Shown here: positions 36,001-64,000 of the stretch, piece after piece
Numbering within the stretch: position 1 is the stretch's first letter
Layout: every line of letters starts with the position of its first letter
From: an uncultured Ignavibacteriales bacterium
GTDB taxonomy: Bacteria > Zixibacteria > MSB-5A5 > GN15 > JAAZOE01
Reading direction: 5' to 3'
Length of the DNA stretch: 64,000 nt
NCBI GenBank assembly: GCA_964611355.1
Contig: CAZSYD010000006.1
Location: forward strand, 1-64,000
Program-made: the position numbers

Positions 36001-39000
36001 GCGCTGCTCTTGCCGAATTTGAAGCCCGGCATGCTTCCAATATCGCCAAATCGGTGCGAACCCTGGAACGCAACGATCAGGCCTGGGAACGTTTAATGCT
36101 GGTGTATGAGCTCCAGATGCAACGCGTGGCTGAGGTTCTGGGGATCGAACTGCTGCCTTTCGATGCAGGGCCGCTGGTGGCGGCCGACAGCCTTGCGGCT
36201 GCGATCCGGTCGTTAAAATCGTCAGGCCGGGAGTCTAACGCAACCTTTGATAGTCTGTCTGTCCGTATGAAAGCCACCCTTTCGAAAACCGGCCGCATCA
36301 CTGATGAAGAGGATGCCATACGACTGGCTCAGATACTGGACGAACAGGTTGACAAACTTCTGGCTGAGAAAGAAACGCTCTCGATAGAAATGGCCGCGCG
36401 TGAGGAAGAGCTGGCCGGCCTCGAGAAGGAACATAAAGAAATTGCCGGTGAGCTTGACAAAAGGCTCGAAAAAGAAGAAAAAATCAAAACGGCCCGAAGT
36501 CTTCTTAACCCGTCGGAATGTGCCGTTATTCGTTCCCCTGCCGACGATATCGTTCTTCGTCTTTTCGGTCTGTCATTCGACGTCGGTTCGAGCGATATCA
36601 AGGACGAACATGTTCCTCTGCTGAAAAAGGTCGAGAAGGTTCTCGGTATGTTCCCTGAGGCCAAGCTGATGATTGAAGGACATACCGATAATCAGGGCGA
36701 TCTGGCGACCAACAAGCGGCTCTCGGAAAATCGGGCTTACGCGGTTATGCAGTACCTGCGCCAGTCCATGTCGATTTCGGCCGGACGTATTCAGTCGAGC
36801 GGTTACGGGCCGGACAAGCCCATCGCATCCAATAAAACGACCGAAGGCCGGGCCAAAAACAGGCGGATAGATATTATTATCATGCAATAATCGGTCAGAG
36901 GATCGGGGGCTGAGAAAATGCAGTCAGTCCGGGTTCGAGAACCTGAAATACGGGCAGGCGTCGCCCATTCCATATTCTATGCCTTAATCATTCCTATTTA
37001 TAAGCGCTTTTAATTATTGTCATTACAATCCGGCTCTTATACATTACAAAAGAGTTGTCGTAATTCCGGCAGAAGGAGGGGATAATGCCAAATCCGATCA
37101 GCCGCTATTTCCGATTCGAAACGTTGCAAACCAGCTTCAAACAGGAAACCATCGCAGGAGCCACCACCTTTTTCACTATGGCCTATATTATTATTGTCAA
37201 TCCCAAGATTTTAGAGGCGGCCGGAATACCGGTCGGGCCTTCAATGGTGGCCACTGTAATAGCCGCCGTCTTCGGCACGTTAGCTATGGGCATTTACGCC
37301 CGGCGGCCGTTTGCAATTGCGCCGTATATGGGCGAAAATGCCTTTATCGCCTTTACGGTCGTAGGCGTTCTCGGGTACAGTTGGCAAACCGCTTTGGGCG
37401 CAATCTTTATAGGCGGAGTATTGTTTACGCTAATCAGTGTTCTTGGTATCCGCGCCTGGCTGGCCCGCGCCATTCCCGAATCATTGAAAATCGCCTTTGC
37501 AGTCGGAATCGGGTTGTTTCTTACCTTTATCGGCCTGAATGAAACCGGCGTGGTTACTCTCGGGGTCCCCGGTGCGCCCGTGCATGTCGGCAATCTGCAA
37601 AGCACGGCGGTTATTCTATCCATAATTTGTTTCTTTCTAATCGGATTTCTAATGATACGAAAAATAAACGGTGCTCTTCTGATTGGAATTCTTGTTGTTA
37701 CTTTCCTCTCGTTTATATTCGGAATCAGCCAATTGCCCGAAAACTTGATGAGCCTGCCTCCCGGCATCTCTCCTGTATTTTTACAGCTTGATATAGTTGG
37801 CGCCCTGCAATGGAGCTTTTTCCCGATCATCCTGACCGTTCTGGTAATGGACTTTGTCGATACTACCGGAACGCTTCTCGGTTTGGCCTACAAATCCGGT
37901 TTTCTCGACGAAGACGGTCAATTGCCGGAGATCGAAAAGCCGATGGTATGCGATTCGACGGCAACAGTTGTCGGCGCTTTGGTCGGAACGACTACCACCG
38001 GTACATTTATCGAATCGGCTGCGGGAATCGAGGCCGGCGGAAGATCCGGTTTCGCATCGGTGATTACAGCCGGGCTGTTTTTGCTTACGCTGTTTTTTGC
38101 GCCGTTTCTCACTGCCGTTCCGCCCTGCGCTTACGGAGCGGCTTTGATTATGGTCGGGTTGTTGATGATATCGCCCATCGTTAAGTTAAAATTTGACGAT
38201 TTGACGGAGTCGATACCGGCTTTTCTCGTAGTTATCCTTATGAGCTTCACCTATAATCTTGGCATCGGAATGACGGCCGGTTTCGTCGCTTTTCCGCTGG
38301 TGATGCTGTTTTCCGGCCGGGCCGGAGAGGTTCATACGGGGATGTGGATTCTGGCTGCTATATCAGCTCTCTTTTTCATCTTTTACCCGTATTAGTTGAC
38401 CGAACGGGATGGCGATGATCCCGGTTTTTGGTGGACAAATCGCGAATTTTGGCTATATTTCAACGGATAAGGGATAANNNNNNNNNNNNNNNNNNNNNNN
38501 NNNNNNNNNNNNNNNNNNNNNNNNNNNNNNNNNNNNNNNNNNNNNNNNNNNNNNNNNNNNNNNNNNNNNNNNNNNNNTTAGGGAGGAACCATTATGCTTC
38601 ACCCATCGGGCCGGTCAAGCAAAGGCCGATATATCCACGCCATATGGCTATCCGTTATAGCGGTAATTTTCATAAATGCAACCCCTGTTCTGGGACAGTT
38701 AAATACCGAAGACATAGAAGTCCTTCGAGAGCTTGCTCGGGAGGAAGGCTGGACCTTTACGGTCGGCGAGAACCCGGCCACGAAATACCCGCTCGAGAAG
38801 TTATGCGGCCTGGTGGTGCCTGACAATTGGCAAGCTACGGCGCGATTTGATCCGATTACACCGGCCAAGGATATCCCCGTATCTTTTGACTGGCGCGATT
38901 CAAATGGCTGCACGCCGGTGAAAGCCCAGGGCAATTGCGGTAGTTGCTGGGCATTTGCCACCGTAGGGGCTTTTGAATGCAACATCAGGATTAAGGATCA

Positions 39001-63000: not shown

Positions 63001-64000
63001 TAAGGGCGACAAGCGCCTGCCCGGAGAAATCCCAGAAGAAGAACGCGATTACTATCTGGAACGAAAATATCCCAGTTTCGGTAACCTTGCCCCCCGCGAT
63101 ATTTCATCGCGCTCCGCCAAGGAGGTCTGTGATGATGGATGCGGAGTTGGTTCATCCGGATATAGTGTGTACCTGGACTTCGCCGAAGCTATTGAGCGCT
63201 TGGGTCGAGAGGTGATTACCGAACGATATGGAAATCTCTTTGAAATGTACCATCTCATAACCGATGAAGACCCTTACAAGGTCCCAATGCGCATATATCC
63301 AGCCGCCCATTATGCTATGGGCGGGTTATGGGTCGATTACAATCTGATGAGCAATATTCCCGGCCTCCATGTTATCGGCGAGGCCAACTTCTCTGACCAC
63401 GGTGCCAACCGCCTGGGAGCTTCGGCTTTGATGCAAGGGTTGGCCGACGGTTATTTCGTCCTGCCGTATACGATTGGCGACTACTTCGCCCGGGTAGGGG
63501 CACAGAGTATCTCTACCGACCGCTCCGAGTTTGGCGAGGCCGAAGAAGCCGTCGCCGCGCGCATAAAGAAACTTCTGTCGGTTAACGGCGAACGCACGGT
63601 CGACTCTTTCCACAAGGCGCTGGGTGAAATAATGTGGGAGAAAGCCGGCATGGCCCGCAACGAAACCGACTTGAAAGAAGCGGTCGAACAGATTACGGCG
63701 CTGAGGAATGAATTCTGGCAGAATGTCAGGGTTATAGGGAGCACTAACGAAATGAACCAGACGCTGGAGAAAGCGGGCCGCGTGGCTGATTTCCTCGAGT
63801 TCGCCGAGATCTTCTGCTATGACGCTCTCAACCGGGAAGAGTCCTGCGGCGCTCACTTCCGCGAGGAGTATCAGACTGAAGATGGAGAAGCCCTGCGCAA
63901 CGACAAGAAGTTCGCATACGTCGCCGCATGGGAATACAAGGGCGATGGTGTCAAACCGGAACTGCATAAGGAGGAGCTCGAGTTTGAGAATGTTGAGCTG

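What a model noticed while it worked through the whole genome (the two positions that open the first line are those of the whole stretch)
38594..64000. Cohesin-dockerin system loaded with peptidases and anchored by T9SS-sorted cohesins
The 2.6-Mb genome encodes 32 dockerin-bearing ORFs. 12 of them are peptidases of six families (gingipain-like C25 three times, papain-like C1 four times, C10 once, M14 twice, S8 once, M23 once). None shows a glycoside hydrolase domain. Eight of them, plus a cohesin-and-dockerin adaptor (C6_29), lie in the given locus. Cohesins sit on proteins that end in type IX secretion sorting domains. The system therefore looks like a cell-surface multi-peptidase assembly rather than a cellulosome. 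Four tandem serpins (C17:24848-30079) may guard the cell.
Evidence so far: - 32 Dockerin_1 hits. - Domain calls for 31 of the ORFs. - Cohesin hits in C2_70 (two, plus FlgD_ig CTD and BACON), C13_48 (plus CTD), C14_39 (plus Por_Secre_tail), and C6_29 (cohesin 2.5e-7 plus dockerin 1.2e-8). - SprA, PorU and PorV are present. - N-terminal hydrophobic signal-like segments in most dockerin proteins, and LQCS lipoboxes in 3 of 4 serpins. - Cohesin in 25 of 25 relatives. The finding spans contig positions 38594 to 77234; this window holds only 38594 to 64000 of it.
(Added by a program. Inside this text positions count along the whole contig: contig position 1 is position 1 of the stretch shown here. 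"Call 12" and the like, gene names such as g00115 and contig names such as C1 are that model's own, and its searches are not shown. The text may have been shortened before it was handed on; [...] marks where a part breaks off. The agent that wrote the report below was given it as the finding of a first reader that could run no searches.)

Follow-up and report, generated by a model that had tools for sequence, protein, structure and literature searches.

The report
Dockerin-tagged peptidases, T9SS-anchored cohesins, Zixibacteria
An uncultured salt-marsh Zixibacterium tags a dozen secreted protein-cutting enzymes with a dockerin plug, and puts the matching cohesin sockets mostly on proteins that its type IX secretion system fixes to the cell surface, so the cellulosome's building blocks appear to be reused for protein rather than cellulose breakdown.

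Summary
The 2.57-Mb genome has 32 Pfam Dockerin_1 sites, or 35-38 ORFs by a profile built from them. Exactly 12 of those ORFs are peptidases (C1 x4, C25 x3, C10, M14 x2, S8, M23). None has a Pfam glycoside hydrolase domain. One count is off: the locus holds 8 dockerin ORFs including the cohesin-dockerin adaptor, not 8 plus the adaptor.

The organism is a Zixibacterium. The trait runs through its order: 12-145 dockerin sites in each of 30 relatives, and cohesins in all 30. The island is syntenic in a complete relative genome.

New points:
- Cohesins are under-counted by Pfam. Two AlphaFold models match solved cohesins, showing hidden cohesin folds in the window's adaptor and in a conserved 405-aa dockerin protein.
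- About 20 cohesin-like modules sit on 16-17 proteins, 9-11 of which end in a T9SS sorting domain.
- Dockerin ORFs (about 38) and sorting-domain ORFs (48) overlap in only 2-3.
- No large scaffoldin exists; the most on one protein is 3 cohesins.

Binding is unproven, and how dockerin proteins cross the outer membrane is unexplained. A T9SS-anchored cohesin scaffold with dockerin-bearing S8 and C25 peptidases is already published for Cloacimonadota. Verdict: a new variant of a known kind, of moderate interest.

The parts
21031..23457 (+). 808-aa secreted protein with two tandem dockerins (aa 643-706 and 719-785) and no assigned catalytic domain. It lies outside the given range but on the same contig.
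   Evidence: Pfam Dockerin_1 35.2 bits, with two stretches listed. Own dockerin profile gives 1.2e-20 and 1.7e-22. Atlas look-alikes are unnamed Bacteroidota clusters.
38594..41386 (+). Papain-like C1 peptidase (aa 94-299) with a C-terminal dockerin (aa 867-919; nt 41192-41350), 930 aa.
   Evidence: Pfam Peptidase_C1 174.2 bits and Dockerin_1 32.2 bits. N-terminal hydrophobic segment.
45666..47819 (+). 717-aa adaptor with no catalytic domain and no T9SS sorting domain. Order of modules: signal segment, cohesin A, internal dockerin-like module, beta-sandwich, cohesin B, terminal dockerin.
   Evidence: Pfam Cohesin 31.4 bits and Dockerin_1 35.5 bits. AlphaFold model from a 67-row alignment has pLDDT about 90 over aa 30-440. 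Its Foldseek hits in the PDB are almost all cohesins. Own profiles place the modules.
45762..46397 (+). Adaptor cohesin A (aa 33-244), a cohesin fold with a Cys-rich insertion.
   Evidence: Foldseek: 3l8q_D E 3.4e-9; 4uyq_A TM 0.77. It is 36-45% identical to internal modules of four proteins that carry a T9SS sorting domain. cohA profile E 5e-70.
46416..46637 (+). Adaptor internal dockerin-like module (aa 251-324), with two DxNxDG-type loops and helices at 263-290 and 302-313.
   Evidence: Consensus of alignment A1. Helices in the model. The profile of this module cross-hits the terminal dockerins at 1e-8 to 1e-16. Pfam does not call it.
46995..47570 (+). Adaptor cohesin B (aa 444-635), homologous to the N-part of the 405-aa dockerin protein C13:47202-48419.
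   Evidence: BLAST 42% identity. cohB profile 4.7e-68. The model of the 405-aa homologue (pLDDT 83) matches cohesins: 4dh2_A E 2e-6, 6kgc_A TM 0.75. This part of the adaptor's own model has low confidence.
47616..47807 (+). Adaptor terminal dockerin (aa 651-714).
   Evidence: Pfam. Own profile 1.7e-28.
47838..50471 (+). DUF5916 protein (877 aa), starting 18 nt after the adaptor's stop codon. Membership in the system is not shown.
   Evidence: Pfam DUF5916 291.6 bits. Its ortholog (55% identity) lies at the same place in relative G002, where the neighbouring gene is a different dockerin protein.
54372..57767 (+). Streptopain-like C10 peptidase (aa 205-391) with Ig-like modules and a C-terminal dockerin (nt 57573-57734), 1131 aa.
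   Evidence: Pfam Peptidase_C10 152 bits and Dockerin_1 33.3 bits. Ortholog of 49% identity at the syntenic place in G002. A C10-dockerin protein also occurs in G016.
58045..59982 (+). 645-aa protein: an unassigned N-part with one Asp-box, thrombospondin type 3 repeats (aa 474-578) and a C-terminal dockerin (nt 59788-59949).
   Evidence: Pfam TSP_3 33.1 bits and Dockerin_1 25 bits. PDB sequence hits to COMP and thrombospondin. Atlas look-alikes of aa 40-470 are BNR_2/sialidase-family clusters, score 0.91, a lead only. Asp-box at aa 138.
60199..60918 (+). 239-aa protein with no Pfam family. It is homologous to N-terminal modules of cohesin- and dockerin-bearing proteins and has neither module itself.
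   Evidence: 57% identity to aa 10-102 of C13:49215-51608. Hits to N-parts of cohesin and dockerin proteins in relatives.
41415..44802 (-). gatD and gatE, housekeeping genes that interrupt the island. Not part of the system.
   Evidence: NCBIfam GatD 512 bits and GatE 492 bits.
61381..64000 (+). sdhC and sdhA (the latter cut by the window end), housekeeping genes that interrupt the island. Not part of the system.
   Evidence: Pfam Sdh_cyt, FAD_binding_2 and Succ_DH_flav_C.

Best explanation
This is a non-cellulosomal cohesin-dockerin system of a Zixibacterium that lives on protein.

**Parts.**
- About 35 Sec-exported proteins end in one uniform ~60-residue dockerin: two near-identical calcium-loop-plus-helix repeats joined by a short proline-rich linker.
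- Twelve of these are peptidases (C1, C10, C25, M14, M23, S8). The rest are adhesin-like or of unknown function.
- About 20 cohesin-fold modules of three sequence types sit on 16-17 proteins. Of these proteins, 9-11 end in a type A T9SS sorting domain.

**Proposed working (inferred).**
1. The cohesin proteins are exported through SprA and fixed to the outer face of the outer membrane by PorU/PorV.
2. The dockerin proteins bind them non-covalently, either directly or through cohesin-plus-dockerin adaptors such as the window's 717-aa protein and the conserved 405-aa protein.
3. The cell therefore carries peptidases and binding modules on its surface and takes up the released peptides.

**Shown here:** the modules, their folds, their mutually exclusive distribution, their conservation and their synteny.

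**Inferred:** binding, surface location, and the route of the dockerin proteins across the outer membrane.
For: 1. **Dockerins are real and homogeneous.** 32 Pfam sites. The alignment shows two symmetric repeats, with 56% mean column identity over 26 modules.
2. **Twelve peptidases, no GH**.
3. **Cohesins by Pfam.** Cohesin is over the cut-off in 6 proteins; 5 of them carry a T9SS sorting domain and the sixth is the adaptor.
4. **Cohesins by fold.** The adaptor model (pLDDT about 90 over aa 30-440) and the 405-aa protein model (pLDDT 83) have solved cohesins as nearly all of their top hits.
5. **Adaptor-type cohesin on anchored proteins.** Four more proteins with a sorting domain carry it, at 36-45% identity and profile E 1e-68 to 1e-80.
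6. **Two largely exclusive C-terminal tags.** 38 dockerin ORFs and 48 sorting-domain ORFs, with only 2-3 carrying both.
7. **T9SS core present.** SprA and PorU are over their cut-offs. SprA is found in 28 of 30 relatives.
8. **Conservation across relatives.**
   - Dockerin in 30 of 30 relatives, at 12-145 sites each.
   - Cohesin in 30 of 30.
   - The 282-aa signal-cohesin-sorting-domain protein has a full-length match at E<=2e-46 in 28 of 30.
   - Of the 120 best homologues of the C25-dockerin peptidase, 98 have this dockerin and 0 have a sorting domain.
9. **Synteny.** The island is syntenic in relative G002, which has 13 dockerin ORFs in 80 kb.
10. **A second genome shows the same bias.** In complete relative G016, 20 of its best-scoring dockerin ORFs include 6 peptidases and 0 GH.
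11. **Gene pairing.** A cohesin-B-plus-dockerin gene lies directly upstream of a cohesin-A-plus-sorting-domain gene in 17 of 53 Zixibacteria loci, and in this genome on C13.
Against: - No binding evidence of any kind exists.
- 33 of the 35 full-length dockerin ORFs lack a T9SS sorting domain. The only full-length secretin lies in a pilM-N-O-Q type IV pilus cluster. No route across the outer membrane is therefore evident, and the dockerin proteins could be periplasmic.
- No scaffoldin has many cohesins.
- The dockerins are so alike that a hierarchy of specificities cannot be read from sequence.
- Six other peptidases (S8 x4, C25, M6) appear to carry a sorting domain directly, three of the S8 only by my own profile. 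Dockerin tagging is thus not needed for peptidase export in this cell.
- About 19 dockerin proteins have no assigned activity.
  - One has an NosD/DUF5123-type beta-helix, which could be a polysaccharide lyase-like fold.
  - One has weak look-alikes in the sialidase/BNR family.
- PorV is below its family cut-off.
- Several cohesin calls rest only on my own profiles at E 1e-5 to 1e-12.
Confidence: 0.6

Rival explanations
1. **Carrier ('hitch-hiking') export.** The cohesin-plus-sorting-domain proteins are export carriers as well as anchors. They would bind folded dockerin cargo in the periplasm and take it through the T9SS translocon, so the dockerin acts as an indirect T9SS signal. This would also end in surface display, so it extends the main explanation rather than excluding it.
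For: - Dockerin and sorting domain are near-exclusive alternatives at the C-terminus.
- 0 of the 120 best C25 homologues have a sorting domain, whereas C25 peptidases of Bacteroidota carry one (the Bacteroidota point is recalled knowledge).
- No type II secretion secretin is evident.
- Small, conserved, single-cohesin carriers exist: 282 aa and 254 aa.
- That the T9SS moves folded proteins is recalled knowledge, not tested here.
Against: - No precedent for hetero-complex export through the T9SS turned up among the 14 papers that mention both dockerin and T9SS. I saw only the listing, plus passages of two of them.
- Cargo outnumbers carriers, and in relatives the ratio reaches 145 dockerin sites to 6 Pfam cohesin sites.
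- Nothing here tests it.
Confidence: 0.13
2. **The dockerins do not pair with these cohesins.** They could be calcium-dependent stabilising or adhesion modules, or bind another partner such as polysaccharide, the surface layer or prey cells. The enzymes would then be free, periplasmic or vesicle-borne, and the co-occurrence with cohesins would be incidental.
For: - Pfam dockerin sites exceed Pfam cohesin sites several-fold or more in every genome searched: 12-145 against 2-10.
- Dockerin loops resemble TSP_3 and EF-hand calcium loops, and EF-hand families co-hit one dockerin.
- Non-cellulosomal dockerins of unknown role are widespread (Peer et al. 2009, recalled; the paper is not held).
Against: - Cohesins are under-counted by Pfam: two hidden cohesin types were found by fold.
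- Cohesin and dockerin are fused in one chain in conserved families, and cohesin and dockerin genes are adjacent in 17 of 53 loci.
- Both modules occur in all 30 relatives.
Confidence: 0.17
3. **A cellulosome-like polysaccharide degrader after all.** The carbohydrate-active enzymes would belong to families Pfam does not recognise and would hide among the roughly 19 unassigned dockerin proteins.
For: - A beta-helix protein (NosD/DUF5123/Disaggr_assoc) carries both a dockerin and a sorting domain.
- The N-part of window 58045-59982 has BNR_2/sialidase-family look-alikes at score 0.91, and one Asp-box.
- BACON_2 and lectin-like modules occur.
- The Cloacimonadota system carries GH18 and GH57.
Against: - 0 of 31 Pfam-dockerin ORFs have a GH at E<=1e-3, and 0 of 13 unassigned dockerin ORFs at E<=5.
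- 0 of 20 in G016.
- 0 of the 34 sorting-domain ORFs scanned, or of the cohesin-bearing ones scanned.
- No CBM was found.
- The Atlas score shares only 161-168 features, below the level typical of same-family hits.
- Twelve peptidases are a positive signal for protein as the substrate.
Confidence: 0.06

Closest known systems
Cellulosome-like complex of Ca. Stygibacter (Cloacimonadota), Williams et al. 2021, PMC8542988 (abstract and passages read)
   Same: - An uncultured lineage with T9SS-type sorting domains.
- Signal-peptide enzymes with C-terminal dockerins, including S8 and gingipain-like C25 peptidases.
- A cohesin protein ending in a conserved C-terminal domain for attachment to the cell.
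- Proposed use on proteinaceous material.
   Different: - There: one 3,755-aa scaffoldin with tandem cohesins and CBM2/CBM3, and dockerins also on GH18 and GH57.
- Here: no CBM, no GH, at most 3 cohesins per protein, and many small single-cohesin anchors.
- Here there are also three cohesin sequence types (two invisible to Pfam), cohesin-dockerin tandem units, and a trait shared by all 30 relatives searched.
Non-cellulosomal cohesin and dockerin modules (Peer et al. 2009, FEMS Microbiol Lett; recalled, paper not held) and the Archaeoglobus fulgidus cohesin 2xdh
   Same: - Cohesin and dockerin modules in organisms that do not degrade cellulose, on peptidases and non-enzymes.
- Proteins that carry both modules.
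- 2xdh is among the fold matches of both models.
   Different: - Those cases are mostly a few modules per genome. Here there are 32-38 per genome, and up to 145 in relatives.
- Here the cohesins are systematically linked to T9SS sorting domains.
Clostridial and ruminococcal cellulosomes, and the amylosome and mucinolysome variants (listings)
   Same: - A two-repeat dockerin on enzymes and cohesin-fold partners.
- Adaptor proteins with a cohesin plus a dockerin.
- Small single-cohesin anchoring proteins; solved OlpA, OlpC and ScaE cohesins are among the fold matches.
- Serpins and a few peptidases also occur in cellulosomes (recalled).
   Different: - Those are Gram-positive cells, anchored by SLH domains or sortase, with carbohydrate-active cargo and large multi-cohesin scaffoldins carrying a CBM.
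- Here the cell has two membranes, anchoring is by T9SS sorting domain, and the cargo is peptidases and adhesin-like proteins.
Gingipains and other T9SS cargo of Porphyromonas gingivalis (recalled knowledge; T9SS review listings)
   Same: - C25 catalytic domain with propeptide and Ig-like C-terminal domain.
- T9SS with SprA and PorU in the same genome.
   Different: - Gingipains carry the sorting domain themselves and are attached covalently.
- Here 3 of the 4 C25 peptidases, and 0 of 120 homologues of the largest one, have that domain; they carry a dockerin instead.

Membership tests
Cohesin-dockerin module pair | Dockerin: two ~22-residue calcium-loop-plus-helix repeats, about 60-70 aa in all | tested here: met
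   Pfam Dockerin_1 is over its cut-off at 33 of the 35 sites listed (two of them only when neighbouring matches in the frame are added). The alignment shows duplicated DxNxDGxxNxxD loops, each followed by a helix segment.
Cohesin-dockerin module pair | Cohesin: beta-sandwich of about 140-200 aa | tested here: met
   Pfam Cohesin is over its cut-off in 6 proteins. Two AlphaFold models have solved cohesins as nearly all top Foldseek hits, with target TM up to 0.77.
Cohesin-dockerin module pair | Calcium-dependent, high-affinity binding of dockerin to cohesin | not testable with these tools
   Needs a bench binding assay. See decisive next steps.
Cellulosome in the strict sense | Dockerin-borne glycoside hydrolases or other carbohydrate-active enzymes | tested here: not met
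   0 of 31 dockerin ORFs at Pfam E<=1e-3. 0 of 13 unassigned dockerin ORFs at E<=5. Families unknown to Pfam cannot be excluded.
Cellulosome in the strict sense | Primary scaffoldin with many cohesins and a cellulose-binding CBM | tested here: not met
   The most cohesins on one protein is 3 (C2:97402-100731). No CBM family appears in any cohesin protein.
Cellulosome in the strict sense | Anchoring by SLH domains or sortase on a Gram-positive wall | tested here: not met
   The cohesin proteins end in Por_Secre_tail/FlgD_ig-type T9SS domains. No SLH family is listed for them.
T9SS cargo (type A sorting domain) | C-terminal Por_Secre_tail / TIGR04183 domain | tested here: met
   Met for the cohesin proteins: TIGR04183 39.5 bits in C14:49527-50375 and 39.4 bits in C13:49215-51608, and Pfam hits. 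Not met for the 12 dockerin peptidases: none has it.
T9SS cargo (type A sorting domain) | T9SS machinery encoded (SprA translocon, PorU sortase, PorV shuttle) | tested here: inconclusive
   SprA 555.7 bits and PorU 625.8 bits are over their cut-offs. The PorV-like gene beside PorU scores 112 bits against a cut-off of 250. The PorK/L/M/N motor was not searched.
Gingipain-type C25 peptidase | C25 catalytic domain with N-terminal propeptide | tested here: met
   Peptidase_C25 190.1 bits, Propeptide_C25 64.3 bits and Peptidase_C25_C 50.6 bits in C6:70316-74587. Catalytic His/Cys residues were not checked.
Gingipain-type C25 peptidase | Own T9SS sorting domain | tested here: not met
   Absent from the 3 dockerin-bearing C25 proteins and from 120 of 120 homologues. 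A fourth C25 (C20:16907-19252) has it.
Ca. Stygibacter-type complex (Williams 2021) | Dockerin on S8 and C25 peptidases, and a cohesin protein with a T9SS C-terminal domain | tested here: met
   the paper's passages were read.
Ca. Stygibacter-type complex (Williams 2021) | Giant scaffoldin with tandem cohesins and CBM2/CBM3; dockerin on GH18 and GH57 | tested here: not met
   None was found in this genome.

The most novel reading that the evidence does not exclude
In Zixibacteria the dockerin is an indirect type IX secretion signal. Small proteins made of a cohesin plus a sorting domain would bind folded dockerin-tagged peptidases in the periplasm, carry them through SprA, and then hold them on the surface. 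If so, one sorting domain serves many cargo types, and cohesin-dockerin pairing works as a secretion adaptor as well as an assembly device. Cohesin-dockerin tandem units on the anchors would let the layer grow by chaining.
Probability: 0.13. Interest if true: 0.85.

Novelty: new variant of a known kind. Interest (0 to 1): 0.55.

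Why it matters
- **Ecology.** Zixibacteria are widespread in sediments and are known only from metagenomes. This gives a concrete, testable picture of how they feed: surface-held peptidases acting on detrital protein.
- **Module biology.** It adds a second candidate phylum in which the cellulosome's plug-and-socket modules are joined to the T9SS. 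The system can be large, with up to 145 dockerin sites per genome, and free of glycoside hydrolases.
- **An open cell-biology question.** How does a protein with a dockerin but no sorting domain cross the outer membrane?
- **Annotation.** Pfam misses two of the three cohesin types found here, so cohesin counts in such lineages are too low.
- **Possible use.** The uniform 60-residue dockerin and the small single-cohesin anchors could serve for surface display in T9SS hosts.

Tried and rejected
- **Complex prediction.** Cohesin domain of C14:49527-50375 (29-row alignment) against the dockerin of the window's C10 peptidase (26-row alignment). Result: no verdict (score 0.13, mark 0.32), controls not run. 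It says nothing for or against binding. Only this one cohesin type was tried.
- **The look-up of sequencing runs.** No RNA holder is listed, so there is nothing on expression. The DNA holders with half or more of the words are 5 salt-marsh metagenome runs, one of which may be the source sample. No reads were laid.
- **Peer et al. 2009.** Not held; cited from recall and from the reference list of PMC8542988.
- **Literature searches.**
  - 'Zixibacteria' plus 'dockerin': 0 papers.
  - Dockerin with other named phyla: nothing relevant in the listing.
  - Dockerin plus T9SS: 14 papers. Among those whose passages I read (PMC8542988 and PMC10266427), only PMC8542988 describes a comparable system.
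  - Supplements were not opened. Table 1 of PMC8542988 was not seen.
- **Type II secretion as the export route.** The one full-length secretin lies in a pilM-N-O-Q cluster with an AMIN-domain protein, so it looks like a type IV pilus secretin. A second secretin hit is a 122-aa frame. This does not exclude other routes.
- **Pfam at E<=5 and NCBIfam on unassigned dockerin proteins.** No catalytic family found.
- **ESM Atlas look-alikes.**
  - Window 58045-59982: a weak BNR/sialidase lead.
  - Window 21031-23457: unnamed clusters only.
- **DUF5916 as a partner of the adaptor.** Considered and set aside. In G002 it keeps its place beside an unrelated dockerin protein, and none of the 53 adaptor-related loci has it.
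- **Model coordinates.** Not available to scripts, so I could not see whether the internal dockerin packs on its own cohesin.

Full report
**What was checked.** The window is contig C6 (positions 1-64000) of a 2,567,721-base, 110-contig genome with 50% G+C. Its completeness is 96%. I called ORFs in the region and scanned them against Pfam. I then searched the whole genome for Dockerin_1 and Cohesin, fetched every hit ORF and scanned those too.

- Dockerin_1 gives 35 six-frame matches at E<=0.01 and 32 at E<=0.001. One is a 61-aa fragment at a contig start.
- The 12 peptidases and their six families are exactly as stated: C1 x4, C25 x3, C10, M14 x2, S8, M23.
- No glycoside hydrolase family appears in any dockerin ORF at E<=1e-3. 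None appears at E<=5 in 13 unassigned dockerin ORFs.
- One count is off. The stated locus C6:38594-77234 holds eight dockerin ORFs including the cohesin-dockerin adaptor. The ninth on the contig (21031-23457, with two tandem dockerins) lies upstream of it.
- Eight in 38.6 kb compares with about 0.5 expected (P about 1e-7).
- The four tandem serpins are real, and three have the LQCS motif.
- SprA and PorU pass their curated cut-offs. The PorV-like gene beside PorU does not: 112 bits against 250.

**Who it is.** Relatives of the adaptor protein were found in 53 loci of public MAGs. These are labelled Zixibacteria / Candidatus Zixiibacteriota, or carry less specific or other labels such as 'Ignavibacteriales'. 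Named homologues of the C25 peptidase are also mostly Zixibacteria. Near-identical DNA occurs in salt-marsh metagenome runs. One of those runs may be the source sample.

**The dockerins.** Thirty-one modules align without difficulty.
- Each has two near-identical repeats: a DxNxDGxxNxxD-type calcium loop, then a helix rich in V/Y/L/I/N/F. A short G-P-x-P-x-P linker joins the repeats.
- Mean column identity over 26 of them is 56%.
- A profile built from them finds 38 ORFs, 35 with a full module at E<1e-17. These include four that Pfam scores below its cut-off or misses.
- The module lies within about 25 residues of the C-terminus in most. It follows the signal segment directly in two small proteins on C48, and it is internal in the two proteins that also have a T9SS sorting domain.
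- 35 of 38 ORFs have an N-terminal hydrophobic segment.

**The cohesins are more numerous than Pfam shows.**
- Pfam finds cohesins over its cut-off in six proteins. Five of the six end in a T9SS sorting domain; the sixth is the adaptor.
- The adaptor, modelled from a 67-row alignment, has pLDDT about 90 over residues 30-440: a beta-sandwich, two helices, then a second beta-sandwich.
- Its PDB matches are almost all cohesins. They include a cohesin dyad and the non-cellulosomal cohesin of Archaeoglobus fulgidus.
- The adaptor's N-part is 36-45% identical to internal parts of four proteins with sorting domains: C13:49215-51608, C14:16067-18724, C1:70969-73545 and C6:80431-84423. In these Pfam sees no cohesin, only the sorting domain and, in C6:80431-84423, HYR and Big_9. 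The last lies 3 kb beyond the locus.
- The adaptor's C-part is 42% identical to a 405-aa protein, C13:47202-48419, in which Pfam sees only a dockerin.
- That protein, modelled from a 47-row alignment (pLDDT 83), again matches solved cohesins.
- Profiles of the three types, which I call A, B and C, give about 20 cohesin-like modules on 16-17 proteins. Of these proteins, 9 firmly and 2 weakly end in a sorting domain. The weakest calls (E 1e-5 to 1e-12, own profiles only) should be treated as candidates.

**A conserved tandem unit.**
- Every type A cohesin is followed at once by a second, divergent dockerin-like module with a longer linker. Pfam does not call it. Its profile cross-hits the terminal dockerins at 1e-8 to 1e-16.
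- All 53 related loci have a type A cohesin ORF. The internal dockerin follows it in 50 of them, and a sorting domain as well in 44. Where a module is missing the ORF mostly runs into a contig end; two loci have a terminal dockerin instead of the sorting domain.
- In 17 loci, a roughly 400-aa gene encoding cohesin B plus a terminal dockerin lies directly upstream. This matches the arrangement on contig C13 of this genome.
- The window's adaptor reads as a fusion of the two neighbouring genes, with the sorting domain replaced: cohesin A, internal dockerin, beta-sandwich, cohesin B, terminal dockerin.

**Two address tags.**
- A profile of the sorting domain finds 48 ORFs with it at the C-terminus. 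Only two or three also have a dockerin.
- Pfam on the sorting-domain class shows Ig, fn3, FG-GAP and beta-helix proteins, and six peptidases: S8 x4, C25 and M6. Three of the S8 were placed in this class by my own profile alone. It shows no GH at E<=1e-5.
- Peptidases therefore use both tags, and the secreted proteome as a whole looks aimed at protein.

**Conservation.**
- All 30 relatives (same family or order) have dockerins, at 12-145 sites each. This genome, at 32, is near the low end.
- All 30 have Pfam cohesins, at 2-10 sites each.
- 28 of 30 have SprA. The two without are 93% and 68% complete.
- The 282-aa protein made of signal segment, cohesin and sorting domain has a full-length match at E<=2e-46 in 28 of 30 relatives.
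- Of the 120 best homologues of the large C25 peptidase, 44 have a precomputed PF00404 hit. By my profile 98 have this dockerin, 92 of them at the C-terminus, and none has a sorting domain.
- In the complete relative G016 I took 20 of its best-scoring dockerin ORFs with a frame of at least 350 aa. Six are peptidases (M6, M12, M14, M28, C10, S8) and none is a GH. Many further dockerin sites of that genome were not examined.
- In the complete same-family relative G002, an 80-kb stretch is syntenic with the window's island. It holds 13 dockerin ORFs. The matching genes are:
  - gatD at 84% identity and gatE at 65%;
  - DUF5916 at 55%;
  - the 421-aa unknown at 60% and the toastrack protein at 53%;
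  - C10-dockerin at 49%;
  - the small C25 at 47.5%, M14-dockerin at 55.6% and the large C25 at 55%.
- At the adaptor's position G002 has an unrelated 626-aa dockerin protein. The adaptor is therefore a lineage-specific insertion into a conserved island.

**How it most likely works.**
- Shown: the modules, their folds, their distribution and their conservation.
- Inferred, step 1: the cohesin proteins leave through the T9SS and are fixed to the outer membrane.
- Inferred, step 2: the dockerin proteins bind them, directly or through cohesin-plus-dockerin adaptors.
- Inferred, step 3: the surface-held peptidases feed the cell.
- I put this at about 0.6.
- The weak point is export. 33 of the 35 full-length dockerin ORFs have no sorting domain, and the one full-length secretin belongs to a type IV pilus cluster.
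- Either another route exists, or the cargo rides out bound to its carrier (the boldest reading, about 0.13), or the proteins stay in the periplasm and the dockerins do something else (about 0.17).
- A hidden carbohydrate-active repertoire is unlikely (about 0.06) but not excluded. One dockerin protein has a beta-helix of the NosD/DUF5123 kind. One in the window has weak sialidase/BNR look-alikes and a single Asp-box.

**Compared with what is known.**
- Non-cellulosomal cohesins and dockerins have been known since Peer et al. 2009 (recalled; not held).
- The nearest published case is Ca. Stygibacter of the Cloacimonadota. It has dockerins on GH18, GH57, S8 and C25, and a 3,755-aa scaffoldin with tandem cohesins, CBMs and a T9SS C-terminal domain (PMC8542988; abstract and passages read).
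- The present system shares the link between cohesin and T9SS and the S8 and C25 cargo. It differs in five ways:
  - no GH and no CBM;
  - no large scaffoldin, but many small anchors;
  - three cohesin types;
  - tandem cohesin-dockerin units;
  - presence in all 30 relatives searched.
- No paper in the searched library holds both 'Zixibacteria' and 'dockerin'.
- I rate it a new variant of a known kind.

**Limits.**
- No binding, localisation or expression data exist.
- ORFs come from a simple stop-to-stop caller, so start codons are approximate.
- Several cohesin calls rest on profiles made here from this genome and its relatives.
- Catalytic residues of the peptidases were not checked.
- Relatives are not independent samples.

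Noticed in passing
window 41415-44802 (-): Archaeal-type Glu-tRNA(Gln) amidotransferase GatD (512 bits, cut-off 324) and GatE (492 bits, cut-off 456) in a bacterium with OmpA and a T9SS. Orthologs of 84% and 65% identity lie at the same place in relative G002, so this is not contamination of the bin. I did not check whether GatCAB is also present.
   Followed up: partly
L163 (G016:C1:2641800-2643700) and L178 (G016:C1:825800-827700): In relative G016, a cytochrome c7-like protein and a glucose/sorbosone dehydrogenase (GSDH) each carry the same C-terminal dockerin. Redox proteins may therefore also be tethered by this system.
   Followed up: no
window 47838-50471 (+): An 877-aa DUF5916 protein starts 18 nt after the adaptor's stop codon. 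It keeps its place in G002 beside a different dockerin gene. Its function is unknown.
   Followed up: partly
G000:C37:8474-13946 (L093): A pilM-pilN-pilO-AMIN-secretin cluster, plus a pseudopilin with a GspH domain, lies 1-6 kb from the S8-dockerin gene C37:15060-17399. It holds the only full-length secretin found in the genome.
   Followed up: partly
G000:C52:12384-14477 (L022): This ORF starts in the middle of an S8 domain (Pfam 20.1 bits, below the cut-off). It continues with FG-GAP and ASPIC/UnbV modules and ends in a dockerin that Pfam scores below its cut-off but my own profile scores 2.6e-24. It may be a 13th dockerin peptidase with a wrong start or a frameshift upstream.
   Followed up: no
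G000:C2:59024-59914 (L030): A 296-aa protein with a weak cohesin hit (20.9 bits, below the cut-off), no sorting domain, and a Cys after its signal segment that looks like a lipoprotein signal. It may be a lipid-anchored cohesin.
   Followed up: no
G000:C17:24848-30082 (L031 849-6083): Four tandem serpins of 414-420 aa. The variable loop before the conserved C-terminal motif differs among the four, which suggests different target peptidases. The next gene, C17:30262-32001, ends in a T9SS sorting domain.
   Followed up: partly
window 52010-52840 (+) and 52972-53931 (-): Two convergent DUF4097 'toastrack' / LiaG-like proteins lie inside the island. The minus-strand one is conserved in G002 at 53% identity.
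   Followed up: no
G000:C18:141-293 (-): A good dockerin match (38.1 bits) sits in a frame of only 61 aa near a contig start. It is a gene fragment or an assembly break.
   Followed up: no
L079, L080, L081, L050 (public Zixibacteria MAG contigs): In some relatives the unit of cohesin A, internal dockerin and sorting domain sits at the end of giant ORFs of 2,672-3,816 aa. Large anchors therefore exist in the phylum, though not in this genome.
   Followed up: no
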